From positions 32,001 to 96,000 of the IMG/VR virus record IMGVR_UViG_3300021399_000106: a DNA stretch of 64,000 nt, one strand, 5' to 3'. Of the stretch, positions 6,184 to 23,835 are shown piece after piece (position 1 is the stretch's first letter; the number at the start of each line of letters is the position of its first letter). A program made the position numbers and the translations under genes. Below the pieces are notes generated by a model. That model had not been told where the DNA came from. It ran no database searches and saw nothing but the letters and a program-made list of their open reading frames with translations. The stretch comes from a virus. Taxonomy: Duplodnaviria; Caudoviricetes.

Positions 6184-6259
6184 ACCGGCGTAGCTCAACT
6201 GGTAGAGTCGCGGTCTTCAAAACCGTTGGTTGTGGGTTCGAGTCCTACCGCCGGTACCA
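6184..6259 (+). tRNA. tRNA-Trp (TCA), opal-decoding
   Basis: Cloverleaf, loop CTTCAAA, short variable arm (not Sec), CCA end, upstream of trpS. Confidence 0.92.
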
Positions 6260-7864: not shown

Positions 7865-7964
7865 AAGACAGTTACAGCAATTCTAAATGCTAGACAAATG
7901 GATAAGTCAATTTCCTGCTAAGAAATCATTTTGGGTTCAAATCCCAAGCAAATAAAACTGTCTT
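7865..7964 (+). ncRNA. Handle RNA 1 carrying a tRNA(GCT)-like body
   Basis: AAGACAGTT-ACAGCAA...AACTGTCTT; D arm, loop CTGCTAA and T arm inside; no CCA. Confidence 0.75.
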
Positions 7965-8302: not shown

Positions 8303-8419
8303 AAGACTCATACTGCAATTATTCCATTCTAGGATTTTTAGCTCATTTGGTAGAGCGTCAAACTTGTAATTTGAAAGTAGCAGGTTCAAGTCCTGCAGAA
8401 TCTATGATAAACGAGTCTT
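8303..8419 (+). ncRNA. Handle RNA 2 carrying a tRNA-Thr(TGT)-like body
   Basis: AAGACTC-ATACTGCAA...GAGTCTT; cloverleaf at about 8331-8403 without CCA. Confidence 0.78.
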
Positions 8420-10203: not shown

Positions 10204-10279
10204 GTGCCTGTAGCTCAGATGGTAGAGCACTTGACTTTTAATCAAGGGGTCACGAGTTCGAACCTCGTCGGGCACACCA
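10204..10279 (+). tRNA. tRNA-Lys (TTT)
   Basis: Cloverleaf, loop CTTTTAA. Confidence 0.95.
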
Positions 10280-11725: not shown

Positions 11726-11744
11726 TTTGAAAGGAATAATGTTT

Positions 11745-12284
11745 ATGAAAGATTTAGTAAAGGCTAGTAAGTATATTGCACTACTATTAAGGCATAAACC
11801 GGAAGAAGGAGATTTAAATCTCGACAAAGAAGGTTATTGTCCAACTGTTGATTTAATAAGAGCCTTAAAAAGAAAATTTAATTGGTTTACATTAAATGAT
11901 TTGTATGATATTGTAAATTCAGACGAAAAAGGTAGATATTCATTTAATGATAATAAAACCAAAATTAGGGCAAATCAAGGTCATTCAACAAATCAAGTAA
12001 ATATAACATTTAAAGAAGTAACACCTCCTGATATTTTATATCATGGAACAGCAACTAGATTTTTAAATGATATTTATAGAGAAGGTTTAAAACCGATGTC
12101 TAGACAATATGTTCATTTAAGTAAAGATATTGAAACTGCAACGAAAGTTGGTAGTAGACACGGAAATCTATATATTTTAGAAATTGATTGTAAGAAAATG
12201 GTTGAAGATGGATATAAATTTTATATTTCAGAAAACAATGTTTACTTAACAAAATTAGTTCCTAGAAAATATTTTAAAAATTAA
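11745..12284 (+). CDS. kptA: RNA 2'-phosphotransferase (Tpt1/KptA)
   Basis: LLRHKP, IRANQGHS, LYHGT, RQYVHLS and NNVYLT motifs. Confidence 0.95.
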   Translation: MKDLVKASKYIALLLRHKPEEGDLNLDKEGYCPTVDLIRALKRKFNWFTLNDLYDIVNSDEKGRYSFNDNKTKIRANQGHSTNQVNITFKEVTPPDILYHGTATRFLNDIYREGLKPMSRQYVHLSKDIETATKVGSRHGNLYILEIDCKKMVEDGYKFYISENNVYLTKLVPRKYFKN

Positions 12285-12313: not shown

Positions 12314-12325
12314 ATTGTATATATA
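12314..12325 (+). promoter_or_regulatory. Example of the recurrent ATTGTATAW promoter motif
   Basis: Same motif precedes about 20 transcription units in the window. Confidence 0.6.
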
Positions 12326-12347
12326 ATATGTAAAATAAAAATTTAAG

Positions 12348-12408
12348 AGACACAGACAGCAAACAATTAATGCAATCAACTTTTAATTGATCAGGCAAAA
12401 ACGTGTCT
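12348..12408 (+). ncRNA. Handle RNA 3 carrying only a Lys(TTT) anticodon arm, in the leader of the DUF2828 gene
   Basis: AGACAC-AGACAGCAA...GTGTCT enclosing ATCAA-CTTTTAA-TTGAT. Confidence 0.75.
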
Positions 12409-12425
12409 AGAAAGGAAGATTAATT

Positions 12426-14057
12426 ATGGATTTTTATGGAACAATGCAAAAGGTACAAAATAATGTATCAGTAACTGAAAATGGTATGGAAGGATACAAG
12501 ACAACTTTCCACCCATTACTAGATATGAATTTCAAGGTAACTTCATATCGTAAGCTTACAGATAGAGATATCTGTAATGATATTGACCAAATAATTTCTC
12601 AAGCAGAGGATGCTCAATATCTATTAAAATTCTTATTTATGGTAAGAGATGTTAGAGATGGTTTAGGAGAAAGAAGATTATTTAGAGTTGCATTAAAGCA
12701 TCTATTAAATACTGCTAATTTCGATAATAAGACTGAAATAATTTCAGACTTAATTAAAACTCAAATTTCTAATTTTGGTAGATTTGATGACTTATTTATT
12801 TTCGTAGGTACCCCTTATGAAAATATCTTAATTAAAACAATTAAGAATCAATTAAAGTCAGACTATGAGAATATGTTAGCTAATAAGAGCATTTCATTAT
12901 TAGCTAAGTGGATGCCATCTGAAAATGCTTCTTCAAAGGAAACTAAGAAGTTAGCAACAGCAATTAGAAAGGCATTAAATGCAGATTCTAAGACTTATAG
13001 AAAAACTTTATCAGCATTAAGAGCATATTTAAAGGTAACTGAAACTTATACTTCAGCTAATGAATGGGATAAGATTGATTATAATCAAGTTCCTTCTAAG
13101 GCAAACTTAAAGTATAAGGATGCATTCTTAAAGCATGATGAGGAAAGACGTAGAGATTACTTAGCTGCATTAAGAGTTGGTGTTGATAAGGAAGGTAATA
13201 AGGTTAAGATTAATTCTTCAGTTAACTTCCCACATGAAATTGTTGCTAAGTATACTAAGAAAAGCTACTGGAGCTTACAATTATCTGAATATGATGAAGC
13301 ATTAGAACAATTATGGAAGAATTTAAAGCAAAAAGATGGTTTAAATAACACAATCGTTGTTAGAGATGGTTCTGGTTCAATGACTTCAACAATTGGTAAT
13401 GGCGATACAACTGCATTAGATGTTTCAACAGCATTAGCAATTTATTGTTCAGAACATTTAAATTCAGGATTTAAGGATAAATTCTTAACATTCTCAAGTA
13501 GAGCTAAGTTAATTGATTTAAGTGCTGAAACTAATTTACATAACAAATTAAATAAGGTATTTAAAGAGGATGATTGCTCAAATACAAACATTGAAGATGT
13601 ATTCGATGTAATTTTAAATACAGCTGTTAATGGTAATGTTGCACCTGAGGATATGCCAGCACAAGTATTAATTATTTCAGATATGGAATTTGATGGTGCT
13701 TATGGTGGAAATAGATTCAATGGTACAAGCAACGTATTCAAGAAAGCAGCTACTAAGTATGCCAATGCAGGTTACAAGTTACCTAAATTAGTATTCTGGA
13801 ATGTATGCTCTAGAACAAATACTATCCCAGTAACACAAAATGAAAATGGTGTAGTATTAGTATCAGGATTCTCAGTTAATACCTTAAATATGGTATTAAA
13901 TGGAAAGACTTCACCTTGGTTATCATTAGTAGATGAATTAACTACAGAAAAGTATAATTCAATTCCATTATTAGCTAATGTAGTGAAGGCTAATGTAAAG
14001 GTAAATACTACTAAGAGAACCTCTAAGTCAAATAAGACACCTGATTTCTTAAAGTAA
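12426..14057 (+). CDS. DUF2828-family helical + vWA protein (Ro60/TROVE-like architecture)
   Basis: TENG, RDVRDGLGER, AKWMPSE, MIDAS DGSGSM, ISDMEFD, VFWN and VSGFS motifs. Confidence 0.85.
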   Translation: MDFYGTMQKVQNNVSVTENGMEGYKTTFHPLLDMNFKVTSYRKLTDRDICNDIDQIISQAEDAQYLLKFLFMVRDVRDGLGERRLFRVALKHLLNTANFDNKTEIISDLIKTQISNFGRFDDLFIFVGTPYENILIKTIKNQLKSDYENMLANKSISLLAKWMPSENASSKETKKLATAIRKALNADSKTYRKTLSALRAYLKVTETYTSANEWDKIDYNQVPSKANLKYKDAFLKHDEERRRDYLAALRVGVDKEGNKVKINSSVNFPHEIVAKYTKKSYWSLQLSEYDEALEQLWKNLKQKDGLNNTIVVRDGSGSMTSTIGNGDTTALDVSTALAIYCSEHLNSGFKDKFLTFSSRAKLIDLSAETNLHNKLNKVFKEDDCSNTNIEDVFDVILNTAVNGNVAPEDMPAQVLIISDMEFDGAYGGNRFNGTSNVFKKAATKYANAGYKLPKLVFWNVCSRTNTIPVTQNENGVVLVSGFSVNTLNMVLNGKTSPWLSLVDELTTEKYNSIPLLANVVKANVKVNTTKRTSKSNKTPDFLK

Positions 14058-14069
14058 AAAAATAAATAA

Positions 14070-14229
14070 AAGACACATACAGCGATATTTATATCATGCT
14101 TGAGGAGCCGCCGATGGAGGTATGAAATCCTCCCTTCCCGACCAAGAGCTATTAAGTTTAATTATTTAATAGTTGTTGCTCGGGAAGTAGCTTAATATTC
14201 ATAGAGCAGCGATTGATAAAACGTGTCTT
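14070..14229 (+). ncRNA. Handle RNA 4: circularly permuted tRNA-Pro-like
   Basis: AAGACAC-ATACAGCGA...GTGTCTT; T arm + CTTCCCG-ACCA precedes CGGGAAG + D arm. Confidence 0.8.
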
Positions 14230-14255
14230 GTTGACTTAAAAATAAATAACGGTAA

Positions 14256-14395
14256 AAGACATTTACTGCAATTCTAACGATTATCACATGTCAAGTGAGT
14301 GACGGTGGTTCGATTCCATCCTCCCCTGCCATTTATTATAATATATAGGGGAGTAGTTCAGTGGTAGAATGCTAAAAAATCAACCAAAATGTCTT
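14256..14395 (+). ncRNA. Handle RNA 5: circularly permuted tRNA-Asp(GTC)
   Basis: AAGACATTT-ACTGCAA...AAATGTCTT; anticodon arm, T arm, CTCCCCT-GCCA, linker, AGGGGAG + D arm. Confidence 0.85.
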
Positions 14396-14440
14396 GATTA
14401 CCTTTAAAATATAAATTTAATATAACATATATAAATAGAT

Positions 14441-14572
14441 TAGACACATACAGCAACTTTTAATCTTTTAGATTACTATAGGTTCAAATCCTATCTCAGC
14501 AACATTGCTAAGTGGCGAAAATGGTATACGCAAACTACTTAAAATAGTTATAATGAAAAAGAAACGTGTCTA
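14441..14572 (+). ncRNA. Handle RNA 6: circularly permuted tRNA-Leu(TAA)
   Basis: TAGACAC-ATACAGCAA...GTGTCTA; variable arm, T arm, loop-closed acceptor, D arm, anticodon arm. Confidence 0.83.
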
Positions 14573-14585
14573 GAAATTAAAATAG

Positions 14586-14617
14586 ATTGGTATTTTACTA
14601 GTAATACCAATTTTTTT
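14586..14617 (+). terminator. Intrinsic terminator after handle RNAs 4-6
   Basis: ATTGGTATT/AATACCAAT hairpin + T tract. Confidence 0.7.
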
Positions 14618-14647
14618 ATTGTATAATTTAATAGAAGAGGTGATATT

Positions 14648-14875
14648 ATGTTATTTTTAGAAACAAGTTCAGAATCTATGACATTATTTACAGCTTTAGT
14701 AATTGTGTTAGTAATAGCATTAGGAATAGTTGTATTATTAATTACATTAAAAACTAATCGATTATTTCCTTTTCATAAAATGCATAAAGAAGATGAAGAT
14801 AATTGTTATGATATGAATCTAAGAAAATCAAGTTCAGTAAAAAAGGATGAAAGAGGAAATAAATGGAAACATTAG
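14648..14875 (+). CDS. Small membrane protein
   Basis: GAGGTG RBS, one transmembrane segment. Confidence 0.6.
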   Translation: MLFLETSSESMTLFTALVIVLVIALGIVVLLITLKTNRLFPFHKMHKEDEDNCYDMNLRKSSSVKKDERGNKWKH

Positions 14876-16197
14876 CTAAGTTTAAAGAATTTGTTGATGA
14901 AATTCAACAAAATAATTCAAGAAATTATAAATTAGAAGTTTTAAAGAAATGATCCGATAATCCAATAATTCGTGTATATTTAGATTTTATTTATAATCCT
15001 TATAAGATTACTGGTATTTCAGAAAAGAAGTTATATAAGGAAATTTGAATGGAATCTGAAGAGATTACAAGTATGTATCAGCTTATGGATTATTTATTAA
15101 CTCATAATACCGGTAGAGATGAAGATATTTGTAAGGTTCAGCAATTCAAAGATTTATTAGATGTTGATTATTATGAATTATTTGATGCTATAATTACAAA
15201 ATCATTAACATTAGGTGTTGATGTATTAAGTATTAATAAATGTATGGGAAACTTCATTCCGCAATTTTCAGTCCAACTTGCCAATAAATATTTTGATAAA
15301 CCTGAAATTGTAGAAGGTAAATCATTTGCATTAACTAGAAAAATTGATGGATCCAGAATTATTGCTATTAAAGAAAATGGTGAAGTTACCTTCTATACTA
15401 GACAGGGACAATTATATGAGGGATTGGTTGATTTAGAAAAAGAAATGTTAGAAACTATGCCTGATAATATTTGTTTAGATGGTGAATTAACTATATTAGA
15501 TGCTAATGGTTTAAGTAGTAAAGACCAATATAAAGCGTGTATGAAAATTTCTAGAAAAGATGGAATTAAACATGGTTTAAAAATGTTAGTATTTGATTGT
15601 ATGAATGCGTCAGAATTTAAAAATCAATTCTGTAATAGACCATATAAGAGTAGAAGACAAATGCTAGTTCAAATTTTTAGAAATAATTTTGTTATGGATG
15701 GGGTTAACTATGATTCTGATTTAGCAAATCTAAACCATACTTATTTTGAAATGTTACCTATTTTATATGAAGGTGAAGATACACAACAAATAATGCCTAT
15801 TCTAAATAAAATGGTTGATAATGGCGAAGAAGGTATTATGATTAATATTTTAGACGCACCTTATGAGTTCCGTAGGACTCCGAATTTGTTGAAAGTCAAA
15901 AAAATGCAAGATTTAGATTTAGAGGTAATTGGTTATGAAGAAGGCTCTGGAAACTTTGCAGGAATGTTAGGTGCTTTATTAGTTAGATATAAACAAGGAA
16001 ATACTGTTAAAGTAGGTTCAGGATTGAATAAAGAATTAAGACAAGAAATTTGGAAAGATCCTGATTCATATATCGGTAAAATTATTTCAGTTCAATATTT
16101 TGAAGAAACAACAAATCAAAATGGTGGATTGAGTTTGAGATTTCCAGTCTTTTTAGAGTTTAGAAATCCAGCAGATAAAAACGTAGCAGATTTTTAG
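14863..16197 (+). CDS. ATP-dependent DNA ligase (2 in-frame TGA)
   Basis: KIDGSR, LDGEL, EEGIM, LLKVKK and SLRFPVF motifs; N-terminus restored by TGA=Trp. Confidence 0.93.
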
Positions 16198-16207
16198 GAG
16201 GTAAATT

Positions 16208-16468
16208 ATGTATATAGAGCCAAAAGTAAATGAATTAAAAATTGGAGATAGCGTATATATTAGACAAACTGCACCAATGGACGATGAAGAAGAATATCGT
16301 TTTTATGAATCTATAATTTATAAAATTGAAGGAGATAAAATTTATAGTAAATATACTACAAATAATCTAAAATTTAATTTTAAAAAGGAAGATGTATATT
16401 ACATAGAAGGTAAAGATAAATACTATGTAAATAGATTTGAAACTCGTTGGAATGGAATATACGGATAG
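16208..16468 (+). CDS. Hypothetical protein
   Basis: AGGAGG RBS. Confidence 0.65.
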   Translation: MYIEPKVNELKIGDSVYIRQTAPMDDEEEYRFYESIIYKIEGDKIYSKYTTNNLKFNFKKEDVYYIEGKDKYYVNRFETRWNGIYG

Positions 16469-16479
16469 GGGATAGAATT

Positions 16480-16911
16480 ATGGCATATAGAACTTATATA
16501 AATGGTCATGAATGGTTAGGCAATAACGTATTATATGATGAAATATATGATGAATTAAAAAGACAAGGTTGTCCATTTGATGAAGATTGTTGTGTAGGCT
16601 GAGAAACACCATTTGAGGTTAAGGATTTAGATAGTTTAGTTAAGGCAACAGAAAAAGCTATAATTAACTTATATAACAAAAGAATACAGATAAAAGAGAA
16701 TATTGCAGATTTTTCTGAGTATATTACTCATCCTATTGGTGATCTCACTTGGCAATTACAAGAAGCTAGAGACTATGGTTACATATTTATAAGTGCAATG
16801 TTATTAGAATATGTAGGAGAATGTCATAAACAGTGGGATTTCGAATTTACTAAATCAGGTATGAAATATGTACTAATTAATGATGGTAAATGTTTATTTT
16901 CTGCTTATTAA
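16480..16911 (+). CDS. Hypothetical protein (1 in-frame TGA)
   Basis: 143 aa in code 4; fills the gap in the ORF track. Confidence 0.7.
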
Positions 16912-17461: not shown

Positions 17462-17881
17462 ATGAGTGATTTAAATTCGTTAGTTTTTAGTAAAAAAGAG
17501 CAAGAATTAGGATTGCATTTAGATTTTATAAATACATTATTAAAATTAAATAAAGAAAGTACAGATCATTATATAGAATTTTTAGTTAGACAAGAAGAGG
17601 ACTTTGTAATTATAGAATGATGTCAAATTAATTATCATTGTGAGGATTGTTATAGTCATTTTAAATTAGTTGAACCTGACCAAGTAGTTATGCTAGAATA
17701 TAGATTTCCTGATAACCACACTGAATATGTTTTTAGTGAAGAAGAAGGAAAAGAATTATTGGACGAATGATTAAAGGAAAATCCTGGTTGGGAAAAAGGT
17801 CCTTATGGTACTTGATATAATAAAATTGAGAATGATAGATTAAGAAAAGAATTTGGTTTAGATAAAGAAGGTAACGAATAA
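17462..17881 (+). CDS. Hypothetical protein (3 in-frame TGA)
   Basis: AAGGAG RBS; 139 aa in code 4; stop overlaps next start. Confidence 0.7.
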
Positions 17882-18487: not shown

Positions 18488-18577
18488 TAGTTACACACAG
18501 CAATTTAATAATACAAATACATGAACAACATTTATATCATTGTTTGGATACGAAAGTAATTAGTAGGTTCGTAACTA
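18488..18577 (+). ncRNA. Handle RNA 7 (no clear tRNA cargo)
   Basis: TAGTTAC-ACACAGCAA...GTAACTA. Confidence 0.65.
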
Positions 18578-20062: not shown

Positions 20063-21193
20063 ATGGAATTAGCGTTATTAAAATTTATAAAAGAACATGA
20101 AAATTGGGAAGAATTATTAACTAGAGACCCATATAACCTAAAAATAAATAGAGATGGTAAATATATTATATTTAAATATAATCAATTATGTTCTGATTTT
20201 AATTTACCAGAAGTTCAAGAAGCCCGAGGTATAATTTTTAGAGAATCAGATTGGAAGTGTGTTTGTCACGCCTTCAATAAGTTTGGAAATTATGGTGAAT
20301 CATATTGCCCTGAAATAGATTGGTCAACTGCATCTGTTCAAGAAAAAGTTGATGGTTCATTAATGAAAGTTTGGTATGATGAATATTGGCATATATCAAC
20401 TAATGGTACTATAGATGCTTTTAAAGCACCATTAGAATGTGCTAATAAAGAAATAACTTCTTATGGAGAACTATTCTTATATTGTTTAAAAGAAAATAAA
20501 CCTTCATTTCCATTTCAAGATTTTATTTCATTTTTAGATAAAGAATATTGTTTTATGTTTGAAATGGTATCACCTTATAATAGGGTTGTTATTGAGTACC
20601 TTGAATCTAAGTTATATTATTTAGGATGTAGAAATATGAGCACTCATCAAGAGTATGGTTTTGCAGATTATTTTCATATTCCATTTGTTAATGGTTTGGG
20701 TAATATATTAAATATGCCAAAACTATATCCATTACATACCTTAAAAGAAGTTCAAGAAGCAGCAAATGCCTTACCTTGGAATGAAGAAGGTTATGTAGTA
20801 TGTGATGCTAATTTCAATAGAGTTAAGATTAAATCTCCAGAATATGTTTTAGCGCATCACGGAAGAACTAATGGTAATATTTCTATTTCAAGATTATTAG
20901 AAATAATTTTAAATAATGAGATAGATGAATTCTTAATTTATGCAGATGAATATAAAGATAAAATAAATAATTTAATTGCTGAAATGGAATTATTTAAAAC
21001 TCAAGTTAAATTAGAAATTATAAATCTAGCTCCAGCAAATTATACTTCAAGAAAAGAATATGCAGAAGTAGTTAAGAGATACCCAGCATATATGCAATAT
21101 TTCTTATTTAGATATAAAACTATTAATGAAGAATTTAAGAAAATAAATATTTCTGGTTGGAAAAAGATATTAAGTGCGAGAGGCATTATTTAA
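20063..21193 (+). CDS. T4 Rnl1-like RNA ligase
   Basis: EARGIIF, FNKFGN, EKVDGSL, FEMVSPYN, EEGYVV and RVKIKS motifs. Confidence 0.9.
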   Translation: MELALLKFIKEHENWEELLTRDPYNLKINRDGKYIIFKYNQLCSDFNLPEVQEARGIIFRESDWKCVCHAFNKFGNYGESYCPEIDWSTASVQEKVDGSLMKVWYDEYWHISTNGTIDAFKAPLECANKEITSYGELFLYCLKENKPSFPFQDFISFLDKEYCFMFEMVSPYNRVVIEYLESKLYYLGCRNMSTHQEYGFADYFHIPFVNGLGNILNMPKLYPLHTLKEVQEAANALPWNEEGYVVCDANFNRVKIKSPEYVLAHHGRTNGNISISRLLEIILNNEIDEFLIYADEYKDKINNLIAEMELFKTQVKLEIINLAPANYTSRKEYAEVVKRYPAYMQYFLFRYKTINEEFKKINISGWKKILSARGII

Positions 21194-22809: not shown

Positions 22810-23835
22810 ATGATAAAATTTATAATGTTAATTGGTTTACCAGGAAGTGGTAAATCTACCTACGCAAACAAATTAATAGATAATAATACCGTATGGTTAT
22901 CTTCTGATAAAATAAGAGAAGAAATTTATGGAACTGAAGAGGAACAAAAAAATCCAGCATTAGTTTTCTCAATTATGTTTGATAGAACAGTTGAAAATCT
23001 AAATAATAATAAGAATGTTATTTATGATGCTACAAATATTAATAGAAAACTTAGAAAAGATTTATTAGATAGATTAAAAAGAAAAGTAAATAATGTCTAT
23101 TATGAATGTGTGCTAGTATATACAAACTTAGAAGAATGTAAGAAAAGAAATTCAAAAAGAGATAGAAAAGTTCCTGAATCTATAATTGATAAAATGGTTA
23201 AAAATTTTGAAGTTCCTGTTAAAGGAGAAGGTTGGGATAATATTGAAGTTAATTATACAACTAAACCATCAGTACCTTATGATAAAGTTATTGATATTTT
23301 TGTAAGTAAAGAGCCTCATGATAATCCTCATCATAATATGGATATTGATTTACATATGTATGCTGCTTGGGATTATTATGTAACACATTATGAATATGGT
23401 ATAGATAATTATTTAAAATATGCCATCTTATTTCATGATATAGGTAAGAAATTCTGTAAAACATATTATAATAGAAGGAATGAATTATGTGAAAAGGCAC
23501 ATTATTACCAACATGCAAATGCTGGAGCATATTTCGCTTTTGATATAGATTTTTCTAATTATAATGACCCTTATTTTGATGGAATATATCAAGATAAAGA
23601 ATTTACAGAAAATGATAAATACAATATGATAATATTAATTAACTATCATATGAGACCTCTAGAAGCTTGGAAGGATTCTAAAAAATCTGAAAATAAAGAT
23701 AAACTAATTTTAGGTGATAAATTATTTAATTATCTTGAAATATTACATGATTGTGATAAGAATTCTGAAGAGGATGAAAAGTTTGTTAAATGGTTTCTTG
23801 AAAAAATGGTTAAGGTATATAGAGGTGAAAACTAA
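22810..23835 (+). CDS. Polynucleotide kinase (AAA_33) fused to HD phosphohydrolase
   Basis: GLPGSGKST, YDATN; HDNPHH...FHDIGK...YHM...HDCD. Confidence 0.88.
   Translation: MIKFIMLIGLPGSGKSTYANKLIDNNTVWLSSDKIREEIYGTEEEQKNPALVFSIMFDRTVENLNNNKNVIYDATNINRKLRKDLLDRLKRKVNNVYYECVLVYTNLEECKKRNSKRDRKVPESIIDKMVKNFEVPVKGEGWDNIEVNYTTKPSVPYDKVIDIFVSKEPHDNPHHNMDIDLHMYAAWDYYVTHYEYGIDNYLKYAILFHDIGKKFCKTYYNRRNELCEKAHYYQHANAGAYFAFDIDFSNYNDPYFDGIYQDKEFTENDKYNMIILINYHMRPLEAWKDSKKSENKDKLILGDKLFNYLEILHDCDKNSEEDEKFVKWFLEKMVKVYRGEN

What the first reader, a model, noticed from the sequence alone, without database searches (positions are those of the whole stretch)
12348..12425. Lone tRNA-Lys(UUU) anticodon arm in a handle in the leader of the Ro-like gene
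The smallest handle encloses only ATCAA-CTTTTAA-TTGAT, with a loop identical to that of the phage tRNA-Lys(TTT). It ends 1 nt before the GAAAGGA RBS of the DUF2828 gene and follows a promoter motif at 12314. Established: tRNA-Lys(UUU) is the target of the anti-phage anticodon nuclease PrrC. Inference: an autoregulatory binding site for the protein, or a sensor that couples expression to anticodon-nuclease activity.
Basis: partly seen in the sequence, partly recalled or inferred. Interest (0 to 1): 0.75.

Follow-up and report, generated by a model that had tools for sequence, protein, structure and literature searches.

The report
Lys-tRNA mimic RNA of Ro-like protein
The 62-base element in front of this phage's Ro60-shaped gene is a real, widely conserved small RNA: a likely protein-binding "handle" carrying a copy of the lysine-tRNA anticodon arm. 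It belongs to a family of partner RNAs for which I found no published description, and it is probably not mainly a gene switch.

Summary
At 12348-12408, a 6-bp stem (AGACAC/GTGTCT) plus the motif ACAGCAA encloses a 5-bp hairpin. Its 7-nt loop, CTTTTAA, equals the anticodon loop of the phage's own tRNA-Lys(UUU). The stem ends 1 nt before the ribosome-binding site (SD) of a DUF2828 gene, and the encoded protein models as a Ro60-like ring.

This is not chance.
- The handle recurs 8 times in this genome and in about 90 related phage loci, always on the gene strand, with free covariation.
- Small handles are about 6-fold enriched for anticodon-like hairpins, and Lys(UUU) is the commonest.
- A protein-blind DNA pattern found 69 more Lys-type handle RNAs. 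Every one with a DUF2828 gene in reach shares its strand (36 of 36).

The same RNA lies upstream or downstream of the gene, from 10 nt to 11 kb away. In Listeria P100 and an Enterococcus phage, terminator-like hairpins separate the handles from the gene.

Best reading: a Y-RNA-like partner RNA (YrlB-like) that displays a tRNA-Lys mimic and is here fused to the mRNA leader. Autoregulation is a possible local extra. A cis sensor of anticodon nucleases is not supported by conservation.

This scan had already noted the DUF2828/ACAGCAA pairing in at least 32 other genomes. I found no published description.

The parts
12314..12327 (+). Degenerate copy (ATTGTATATATAAT) of the phage's recurrent promoter-like motif ATTGTATAAT; a possible promoter for the unit
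   Evidence: This is weak: there is no exact motif, no sigma-70 consensus, and read-through from the Tpt1 gene is equally possible. The homologous leader in L004 has a perfect TTGACA-17-TATAAT.
12348..12408 (+). Handle RNA H0 (the finding): P1 12348-12353/12403-12408; ACAGCAA 12356-12362; P2 12371-12373/12395-12397; anticodon-arm mimic 12375-12391 with loop CTTTTAA at 12380-12386
12410..12418 (+). Ribosome-binding site GAAAGGAAG of the DUF2828 gene, 1 nt after P1
   Evidence: It is unpaired in the minimum-energy fold of 12340-12430.
12426..14057 (+). DUF2828/DUF7788 gene (543 aa): predicted Ro60-like ring with a vWA domain that keeps a DGSGSM (DxSxS, MIDAS-type) motif
   Evidence: Pfam; AlphaFold model with pLDDT 87.9; the top 12 Foldseek hits are all Ro60 entries or the phage phiLo Ro60/TROVE structure; invariant D314, S316 and S318
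14070..14229 (+). Handle RNA H1, enclosing a permuted tRNA-like module (YrlA-like layout)
14256..14395 (+). Handle RNA H2 (ACTGC variant), with a permuted tRNA-like module
   Evidence: Sub-threshold Rfam YrlA hit at 14300-14370 (21.6 bits; gathering score 69).
14441..14572 (+). Handle RNA H3, with a permuted tRNA-like module plus an anticodon-like hairpin
14588..14620 (+). AT-rich hairpin followed by a T7 run; the likely terminator closing the unit H0-gene-H1-H2-H3
   Evidence: Read by eye. The scan's GC rule misses it. The next ATTGTATAAT motif starts at 14618.
7865..7964 (+). Handle RNA enclosing a Ser(GCU)-type anticodon arm plus T arm (ARAGORN calls it tRNA-Ser)
8303..8419 (+). Handle RNA (ACTGC variant) enclosing a complete tRNA-Thr(UGU)
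18488..18577 (+). Handle RNA (TAGTTAC/GTAACTA)
   Evidence: 25 bits
18710..18795 (+). Handle RNA (AAGTCGC/GCGACT); the 3' end is uncertain
10204..10279 (+). The phage's genuine tRNA-Lys(UUU), used for comparison
11727..12284 (+). Tpt1/KptA RNA 2'-phosphotransferase gene immediately upstream

Best explanation
H0 is a small structured RNA of about 62 nt from a large, apparently undescribed family of 'handle RNAs' that travel with the Ro60-shaped DUF2828 protein in phages.

The handle is a 6-7-bp closing stem followed by the single-stranded motif NN-ACAGCAA. I infer that it is the protein's docking site, playing the part of the Ro-binding stem of a Y RNA.

The body is a minimised tRNA-Lys. A 3-bp helix and one spacer base lead to a 5-bp stem with the loop CUUUUAA. 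I infer that this is displayed as a mimic of the tRNA-Lys(UUU) anticodon arm to some factor that reads that arm. An anticodon nuclease is the most likely such factor, with the RNA as decoy or bait; a tRNA-modifying or repair enzyme is the alternative.

In this phage the RNA is fused to the 5' leader of the protein's own mRNA, so RNA and protein are made together. This matches the Ro60/Y-RNA operons of bacteria. Because the stem ends 1 nt before the SD, bound protein could also damp its own translation. That would be a local add-on, not the family's role.

Shown: the family, its structure, its linkage to the gene and the anticodon mimicry. Inferred: protein binding and the purpose of the display.
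For: Family and structure
- AGACACAKACAGC occurs only 3 times in the 166-kb genome, all beside the gene. There are 8 handles in the genome, all on the + strand within 11 kb.
- A regex for handles finds 324 on the gene strand against 83 on the opposite strand across about 90 related loci.
- The covariance model R1 gives 167 hits at E <= 0.01, all on the gene strand.
- In 11 Lys-type homologues, 97% of cells are paired against 76% in shuffles (0 of 500 shuffles as high). Ten of 12 pairs show compensatory changes, and slid controls give 28-47%.
- The third helix covaries: TGC/GCA, ACG/CGT, TAC/GTA, AGG/CCT and AGC/GCT.
- G-U pairs in P1 fit an RNA on this strand.

Anticodon mimicry
- 48 of 153 non-redundant small handles have a hairpin of at least 4 bp with a YU-NNN-R-N loop, against 7.5 +/- 2.4 in shuffles. 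With stems of at least 5 bp the figures are 34 against 2.7.
- CTTTTAA is the commonest loop: 10 against 0.03 expected.

Blind test
- The pattern ACAGCAA-N8-24-GACTTTTAATC gave more than 117 viral stretches.
- 69 of 82 matches have P1 in register, with 39 distinct P1 strands.
- All 36 with a DUF2828 hit in the locus share its strand: 26 upstream and 10 downstream.
- L014, found by RNA pattern alone, has the gene flanked by two handles.

Protein and context
- The model has pLDDT 87.9. The 12 best Foldseek hits are Ro60 entries, including the Ro60 homologue of Thermus phage phiLo.
[quoted passage not shown] PhiLo Ro60 binds two RNAs encoded upstream of its gene (PMC12135203).
- Tpt1, an Rnl1-type RNA ligase and a P-loop kinase lie nearby.
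- tRNA-Lys(UUU), Thr(UGU) and Asn(GUU) are the targets of PARIS AriB (PMC12409363). Lys and Asn are the two commonest loops in the regex set, and a handle in this window encloses a tRNA-Thr(UGU).
Against: - No binding, expression or processing data exist. Protein-handle binding is inferred only from linkage and from the Ro60/Y-RNA analogy.
- The Ro-binding motif of known Y RNAs (GNCGAAN0-1G, or CGAA) is absent, and Rfam YrlA does not match H0.
- For H0 alone, the nearest-neighbour model prefers a competing 7-bp AU hairpin. It gives the anticodon-arm pairs about 4% probability.
- The cargo anticodons are diverse (Ser, Pro, Cys, Ile, Met, Gln and others). This does not single out known nuclease targets.
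- Half of the Lys-type RNAs from the blind scan had no DUF2828 hit in the stored locus. Many of those loci are short, so this is uninformative rather than contrary.
- The covariance-model alignment is fitted to the model, and the regex requires P1 pairing. Family-wide P1 statistics are therefore partly circular. The strand bias and the blind scan are not.
Confidence: 0.6

Rival explanations
1. The element is primarily a translational operator. Free DUF2828 protein binds the handle 1 nt upstream of the SD and blocks 30S binding, giving negative autoregulation. The Lys arm is incidental cargo.
For: - The handle must be on the mRNA, because there is no room for a start site after it.
- The SD is unpaired in the naked RNA, so any control would need a protein.
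- A handle abuts the SD, ending 23 nt or less before the start codon, in 17 of 61 related genes. These are scattered over the protein tree and carry different cargo: win has Lys, L012 has Asn and L004 has none. This fits selection on the handle-SD junction itself.
- Precedent from established knowledge: E. coli ThrRS, T4 RegA and gp32, and ribosomal proteins.
Against: - Sister phages L005 and L016 express the gene with no leader handle.
- In most relatives the spacing is 27-60 nt.
- In Listeria P100 and Enterococcus EfsSzw-1, a terminator-like hairpin separates the handles from the gene, followed in EfsSzw-1 by a promoter-like motif.
- The same Lys-type RNA is often downstream or kilobases away. 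Only 4 of 26 upstream copies lie within 50 nt of the start.
- Tight gene packing alone could give the abutment.
Confidence: 0.2
2. The element is a cis sensor of anticodon-nuclease attack. Cleavage of the Lys-like loop in the leader by PrrC, RloC or a PARIS-type nuclease changes the stability or translation of the DUF2828 mRNA, and so switches on the repair or quality-control response.
For: - The Lys(UUU) loop is exactly that of the classical nuclease target.
- An Rnl1-type ligase, a kinase and Tpt1 are encoded nearby.
- The element is on the leader.
Against: - The closest relative, L004, has a leader handle without any Lys arm, and keeps its Lys-type RNA downstream of the gene.
- Lys-type RNAs are mostly not in leaders.
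- Leader handles carry many other cargos or none.
- No mechanism links loop cleavage to the freely accessible SD.
Confidence: 0.07
3. The handle is a processing or maturation clamp rather than a protein dock. It acts as a leader-trailer helix that directs cleavage, and perhaps ligation or circularisation, of tRNA-derived cargo, as in permuted tRNA genes. H0 would then be a degenerate remnant.
For: - Handles in this window enclose a whole tRNA-Thr and three permuted tRNA-like modules.
- Tpt1 and ligases are adjacent.
- P1 is 7 bp long, like an acceptor stem.
Against: - The commonest family members are minimal RNAs of 36-70 nt with no tRNA body to mature.
- The invariant single-stranded ACAGCAA and the strict linkage to one protein family point to a bound RNP.
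- The Lys subclass is too conserved to be a remnant.
Confidence: 0.08
4. The element is a chance AT-rich hairpin, or a DNA-level inverted repeat with no RNA function.
For: - The genome is 27% GC.
- The folding z-score of H0 alone is modest: -1.4 to -2.2.
Against: - Strand specificity is complete: 167 hits on the gene strand and none on the other.
- Three helices show compensatory changes.
- G-U pairs are present.
- The loop is enriched 10 against 0.03.
- All 36 copies with a gene in reach are co-oriented with it.
Confidence: 0.01

Closest known systems
Ro60 (Rsr) with its Y RNAs: bacterial and mycobacteriophage YrlA/YrlB/Yrn2 (Chen et al. 2014, PMC4201824) and Thermus phage phiLo Ro60 with Yrl1/Yrl2 (PMC12135203)
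   Same: - A ring-shaped protein with HEAT repeats and a vWA domain (fold match).
- Encoded next to, and on the same strand as, several small RNAs whose 5' and 3' ends pair in a stem next to a conserved single-stranded motif.
- One class carries a tRNA-like module (H1-H3). [quoted passage not shown]
- The RNAs are co-transcribed with the gene.
   Different: - The protein is in Pfam DUF2828/DUF7788, not TROVE, with about 13% identity to Ro60 in the structural alignment.
- The motif is ACAGCAA rather than GNCGAAN0-1G or CGAA.
- The closing stem is only 6-7 bp.
- The hairpin tip is a specific anticodon-arm copy, most often Lys UUU. This is not reported for YrlB.
- There is no Rfam match.
E. coli thrS translational operator (anticodon-arm mimics of tRNA-Thr next to the SD, bound by ThrRS); recalled from established knowledge, not tested here
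   Same: An anticodon-arm look-alike placed directly upstream of the SD of the gene for an RNA-binding protein. This arrangement allows repression by competition with the ribosome.
   Different: - Here the likely protein contact is the handle, not the anticodon arm.
- The element exists mostly as a free-standing RNA away from any SD.
- The protein is not a tRNA synthetase.
Phage answers to anticodon nucleases: T4 Pnkp plus Rnl1 repair of PrrC-cut tRNA-Lys (established knowledge), and T5 tRNA-Lys/Thr/Asn variants that neutralise PARIS AriB (PMC12409363, PMC11464382)
   Same: - The same tRNA identities recur. Lys(UUU) is commonest and Asn(GUU) follows in the regex set, and a handle in this window encloses a tRNA-Thr(UGU).
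- The phage also encodes an Rnl1-type ligase, a kinase and a large tRNA set.
   Different: - These RNAs cannot decode, because they have no D or T arms and no CCA end.
- If they act against nucleases, it would be as decoys or bait on a protein scaffold, not as replacement tRNAs. No such RNA decoy is described in the papers searched.
Class I RNAs of dictyostelid amoebae (PMC7919456)
   Same: The same design: about 60 nt, a short stem joining the 5' and 3' ends, a conserved motif directly after the 5' strand of the stem, and a variable remainder.
   Different: - These are eukaryotic RNAs with their own promoter and a different known binding protein (Rnp1A).
- I could not verify the letters of their 11-nt motif from the text held.
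- No Rfam hit links them to H0.
- This is a lead from earlier notes of this scan, not a tested relationship.

Membership tests
Y RNA (YrlA/YrlB type, Rfam RF02553) | Encoded close to, and on the same strand as, a Ro60 (TROVE plus vWA) gene | tested here: inconclusive
   H0 is adjacent to and co-oriented with a protein that has the Ro60 fold (Foldseek, 1yvr E 8.5e-9, TM 0.51). Pfam, however, gives DUF2828/DUF7788 rather than TROVE, and a PDB sequence search finds nothing.
Y RNA (YrlA/YrlB type, Rfam RF02553) | The 5' and 3' ends pair in a stem that carries the Ro-binding site | tested here: met
   P1 (12348-12353 with 12403-12408) covaries in homologues. It is only 6-7 bp, shorter than typical Y RNA stems.
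Y RNA (YrlA/YrlB type, Rfam RF02553) | Conserved GNCGAAN0-1G (CGAA) motif in the 5' strand | tested here: not met
   There is no CGAA in 12347-12409. The invariant motif is ACAGCAA.
Y RNA (YrlA/YrlB type, Rfam RF02553) | Match to the Rfam covariance model at the gathering score | tested here: not met
   No hit on H0 at E <= 10. The neighbouring H2 reaches 21.6 bits against a gathering score of 69.
Y RNA (YrlA/YrlB type, Rfam RF02553) | Physical binding to the Ro protein | not testable with these tools
   This needs immunoprecipitation or gel-shift assays.
DUF2828-associated ACAGCAA handle RNAs (no published description found; defined by this scan) | A 6-7-bp closing stem directly followed by NN-ACAGCAA, with the stem covarying and the motif invariant | tested here: met
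DUF2828-associated ACAGCAA handle RNAs (no published description found; defined by this scan) | Located near a DUF2828 gene and on its strand | tested here: met
   H0 ends 17 nt before the start codon. Family-wide, all 167 model hits are on the gene strand, and all 36 copies from the protein-blind scan are co-oriented with the gene.
tRNA (Rfam RF00005) | Cloverleaf with acceptor, D, anticodon and T arms | tested here: not met
   Neither ARAGORN nor Rfam calls a tRNA at 12348-12408. Only an acceptor-like stem and an anticodon arm are present.
Translational operator that mimics the protein's RNA ligand (ThrRS type) | The binding site overlaps or abuts the SD | tested here: met
   P1 ends at 12408 and the SD starts at 12410.
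Translational operator that mimics the protein's RNA ligand (ThrRS type) | The position relative to the SD is conserved among homologues | tested here: not met
   The handle abuts the SD in 17 of 61 loci, and the nearest sister phages have no leader handle. Among the Lys-type RNAs, 4 of 26 upstream copies lie within 50 nt of the start, and 10 copies are downstream. Terminator-like hairpins intervene in P100 and EfsSzw-1.
Translational operator that mimics the protein's RNA ligand (ThrRS type) | Protein-dependent repression of translation | not testable with these tools
   This needs reporter fusions or toeprinting.

The most novel reading that the evidence does not exclude
The Ro60-like DUF2828 ring, loaded with handle RNAs, is a phage counter-defence particle. 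It displays bare anticodon arms, above all that of tRNA-Lys(UUU), as decoys or bait for host anticodon nucleases such as PrrC, RloC, PARIS AriB and other HEPN-type RNases. It would soak them up, or hand the cut ends to the neighbouring kinase, ligase and Tpt1 repair enzymes. That would make it an RNA-decoy arm of the tRNA arms race, and a concrete job for a Ro/Y-RNA-type particle.
Probability: 0.2. Interest if true: 0.85.

Novelty: new variant of a known kind. Interest (0 to 1): 0.7.

Why it matters
Ro60 and its Y RNAs occur from bacteria to humans, yet what the RNA 'modules' are for is still largely open. Here a Ro60-shaped protein common in phages carries partner RNAs with swappable cargo. 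The protein family matches more than 700 sequenced phage records, including Listeria P100 and Enterococcus, Bacillus and Staphylococcus phages.

The simplest and commonest cargo is an exact copy of the tRNA-Lys(UUU) anticodon arm, which is the classical target of anti-phage anticodon nucleases. That gives a sharp hypothesis, display of a tRNA part as decoy or bait. It can be tested in cultivable phage-host pairs.

The work also defines a new RNA family of about 60 nt, with three covarying helices and two invariant motifs. The family could be added to RNA databases. That would stop some of these elements from being mis-annotated as tRNAs or left as 'intergenic'.

Tried and rejected
- Rfam at gathering score and at E <= 10 found only tRNAs in the window, nothing on H0, and a sub-threshold YrlA hit on H2.
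- The sigma-70 and terminator scan found nothing above shuffles. Its GC rule misses this phage's AT-rich terminators.
- A PDB sequence search with the protein gave no hit. The fold search was needed.
- Single-sequence folding of H0 gives a competing AU hairpin, which the nearest homologue read (L017) cannot form. I did not take it as the structure.
- The first MAFFT alignment of 16 Lys-type RNAs mis-registered the 3' ends. I realigned 11 sequences and checked the helices by script.
- Literature searches found no description of these RNAs. I searched for DUF2828, for YrlA with phage, for anticodon stem-loop decoys and for Y RNA-like RNAs in bacteriophages. A search for the motif letters returned only unrelated papers.
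- I considered that the loop CUUUU might pair with the SD GAAAG as a pseudoknot. I dropped this because the Asn loop of the L012 leader handle has no such complement in its SD region.
- I considered a link between cargo anticodons and one modification class (t6A, Q or i6A). I rejected it because the anticodons span several classes.
- Complex prediction was not used, because it cannot test protein-RNA binding.

Full report
**What is there**

The window is part of a 166.5-kb, 27% GC phage genome from IMG/VR. It carries 32 tRNA genes upstream of the finding. The gene order around the finding is:
- a YqeY-like gene;
- Tpt1/KptA at 11727-12284;
- the element;
- a 543-aa DUF2828/DUF7788 gene at 12426-14057;
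- three further structured RNAs;
- an ATP-dependent ligase.

At 12348-12408 the sequence reads AGACAC-AG-ACAGCAA-...-TGC-A-ATCAA-CTTTTAA-TTGAT-CAG-GCA-AAAAC-GTGTCT. It is followed by A, the ribosome-binding site (SD) GAAAGGAAG at 12410-12418, and ATG at 12426. The phage's own tRNA-Lys(UUU) has the anticodon arm CTTGA-CTTTTAA-TCAAG. The loop is identical and the stem is different.
- The element also contains a short third helix.
- The 'promoter motif' is only a degenerate copy of the phage's ATTGTATAAT signal, which has 17 exact copies, all on the + strand.

**It is one of a family**

- The 13-mer AGACACAKACAGC occurs three times in the whole genome, all flanking this gene. Each copy is matched downstream by AACGTGTCT.
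- A register-aware search finds eight handles in the genome, all on the + strand and within 11 kb.
- The three RNAs after the gene enclose permuted tRNA-like modules in the order T arm, acceptor with CCA, linker, acceptor, D arm. This is the YrlA layout. One of them gives a sub-threshold Rfam YrlA hit.
- A hairpin with a T7 run at 14588-14620 closes the unit.

**The protein is Ro60-like**

An AlphaFold model built on 61 homologues has pLDDT 87.9 and pTM 0.87. All 12 of its best Foldseek hits are Ro60 entries. They include Xenopus and human Ro60, D. radiodurans Rsr and the Ro60 homologue of Thermus phage phiLo. The vWA motif DGSGSM is invariant. By sequence, Pfam sees only DUF2828/DUF7788. Homologues occur in 710 phage records.

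**Comparative evidence for the RNA**

- Related loci fetched through the protein have handles in the same register. The regex finds 324 on the gene strand against 83 on the other.
- The closing stem changes freely: AAGACAC/GTGTCTT, GGGGCGC/GCGCCCC, TAGGTGC/GCACCTA and others. NN-ACAGCAA stays fixed.
- Eleven Lys-type homologues align over their whole length. 97% of cells are paired against 76% in shuffles (0 of 500 as high). Ten of 12 pairs carry compensatory changes, and slid controls give 28-47%.
- The loop CTTTTAA is invariant.
- A 3-bp helix between the handle and the arm also covaries.
- A covariance model built from these sequences finds 167 hits at E <= 0.01 in 624 kb, all on the gene strand.
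- Cultivated phages have the handles too: Listeria P100, Enterococcus EfsSzw-1 and Bacillus vB_BsuS_PJN02.

**Is the anticodon likeness chance?**

No.
- Of 153 non-redundant small handles, 48 hold a hairpin of at least 4 bp whose 7-nt loop fits the anticodon-loop pattern YU-NNN-R-N. Dinucleotide shuffles give 7.5 +/- 2.4.
- With stems of at least 5 bp the figures are 34 against 2.7.
- The loops look like anticodon loops (my reading, not tested): CTTTTAA (Lys), CTGTTAA (Asn), CTGCAAA (Cys), CTGCTAA and CTTGAAA (Ser), and TTTGGGT (Pro).
- CTTTTAA is the commonest, at 10 clusters against 0.03 expected.

A scan that ignored the protein used ACAGCAA, then 8-24 nt, then GACTTTTAATC.
- 69 of the 82 matches examined have the closing stem in register, with 39 different stem sequences. 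Their lengths peak at 59-68 nt.
- All 36 of these with a DUF2828 gene inside the stored locus share its strand.

The Lys-arm handle RNA is therefore a widespread, strongly conserved RNA.

**Leader element or partner RNA?**

In this phage the RNA must be part of the mRNA, since only 1 nt separates it from the SD. In the closest relative, L004, a perfect TTGACA-17-TATAAT precedes the homologous leader handle. The general picture nevertheless argues against a mainly cis-regulatory role:
- The L004 leader handle has other cargo, and its Lys-type RNA lies after the gene.
- In L017, L021, L005 and L025 the Lys-type RNA also lies after the gene.
- In the blind set it is upstream 26 times and downstream 10 times, at distances of 10 nt to 11.5 kb. 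Only 4 copies are within 50 nt of the start.
- The sister phages L005 and L016 have no leader handle.
- In P100 and EfsSzw-1 a terminator-like hairpin separates the handles from the gene, followed in EfsSzw-1 by a promoter-like motif.

On the other side, a handle abutting the SD recurs in 17 of 61 loci scattered over the protein tree, with varied cargo. The SD is unpaired in the naked RNA. Occlusion by bound protein is therefore a reasonable lineage-specific extra.

**Mechanism proposed**

By analogy with Ro60 and its Y RNAs, I infer that the handle docks on the DUF2828 ring and the body is displayed.
- Bacteria pair a tRNA-like Y RNA with a simple hairpin Y RNA that has a small pyrimidine-rich loop. 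Both are co-transcribed with Ro60 (PMC4201824).
- PhiLo Ro60 binds two RNAs encoded upstream of its gene (PMC12135203).
- H0 is the simple-hairpin class, but its tip is a precise tRNA-Lys(UUU) anticodon arm.

What reads that arm is unknown. The context points to the contest over tRNA anticodon loops:
- Tpt1, an Rnl1-type ligase and a P-loop kinase are encoded nearby.
- tRNA-Lys(UUU), Thr(UGU) and Asn(GUU) are the known targets of PARIS AriB (PMC12409363), and tRNA-Lys(UUU) is the target of PrrC (PMC1484252, abstract).

The variety of other cargo anticodons means this remains a hypothesis.

**Caveats**

- No expression or binding data exist.
- The single-sequence fold of H0 prefers a competing AU hairpin.
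- Part of the family-wide stem statistics is circular, because the regex and the model both demand pairing.
- Many blind-scan loci are too short to show whether the gene is near.

**Novelty**

- Rfam has no match.
- The paper library returned no description.
- Earlier follow-ups in this scan reported the DUF2828/ACAGCAA pairing in at least 32 other genomes and also found no published account.
- This report adds four things: the anticodon-arm statistics, the Lys subclass with its three-helix structure, the protein-blind linkage test, and the test of the leader hypotheses.

Noticed in passing
window 14863-16197, 16447-16911, 17462-17881; tRNA at 6184-6259: In-frame TGA codons interrupt several genes. 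The ATP-dependent ligase has 2, and two small ORFs have 1 and 3. These genes read through under code 4. The phage also carries a tRNA with anticodon UCA, so TGA seems to be recoded in part of the genome. The DUF2828 gene has none.
   Followed up: partly
window, 17 sites including 10529, 14618 and 18432: The exact 10-mer ATTGTATAAT occurs 17 times, always on the + strand. With up to one mismatch there are 65 matches against 38 expected. It looks like this phage's promoter signal of the extended -10 type.
   Followed up: partly
window 8303-8419 and 7865-7964: One handle encloses a complete, high-scoring tRNA-Thr(UGU). Another encloses an anticodon arm plus T arm that ARAGORN reports as tRNA-Ser(GCT). 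Some 'tRNA genes' of this phage are therefore handle-RNA cargo.
   Followed up: partly
window 14070-14572: Three tandem handle RNAs carry circularly permuted tRNA-like modules (YrlA-like order). One gives a sub-threshold Rfam YrlA hit.
   Followed up: partly
L023, L026, L027, L030, L033, L036, L039 and L048, between the leader handle and the SD: A conserved spacer of about 25 nt (GGGATTTAGAAATAAATCAAAAA or similar) follows the leader handle in one clade. It forms a short hairpin, GATTT...AAATC, whose role is unknown.
   Followed up: no
window 20063-21190 and 22810-23832: A T4 Rnl1-type RNA ligase and a P-loop kinase (AAA_33/KTI12-like) lie 6-10 kb downstream. With Tpt1 they form an RNA end-healing and sealing set.
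   Followed up: partly
L012:3001-5185: The DUF2828 match in this relative spans 2185 nt instead of about 1550, which suggests an insertion in the gene (an intein, an intron or an extra domain).
   Followed up: no
L106 and L135 (contigs named GVMAG): The Lys-type motif also occurs in contigs labelled as giant-virus MAGs. There it is followed by a T arm, as if a tRNA-Lys had its D arm replaced by the ACAGCAA segment.
   Followed up: no
window 12364-12370 with 12383-12389: CAATTAA can pair with TTAATTG, forming a 7-bp hairpin that competes with the anticodon-arm fold. The nearest homologue read (L017) has no matching complement, so it may be chance.
   Followed up: partly
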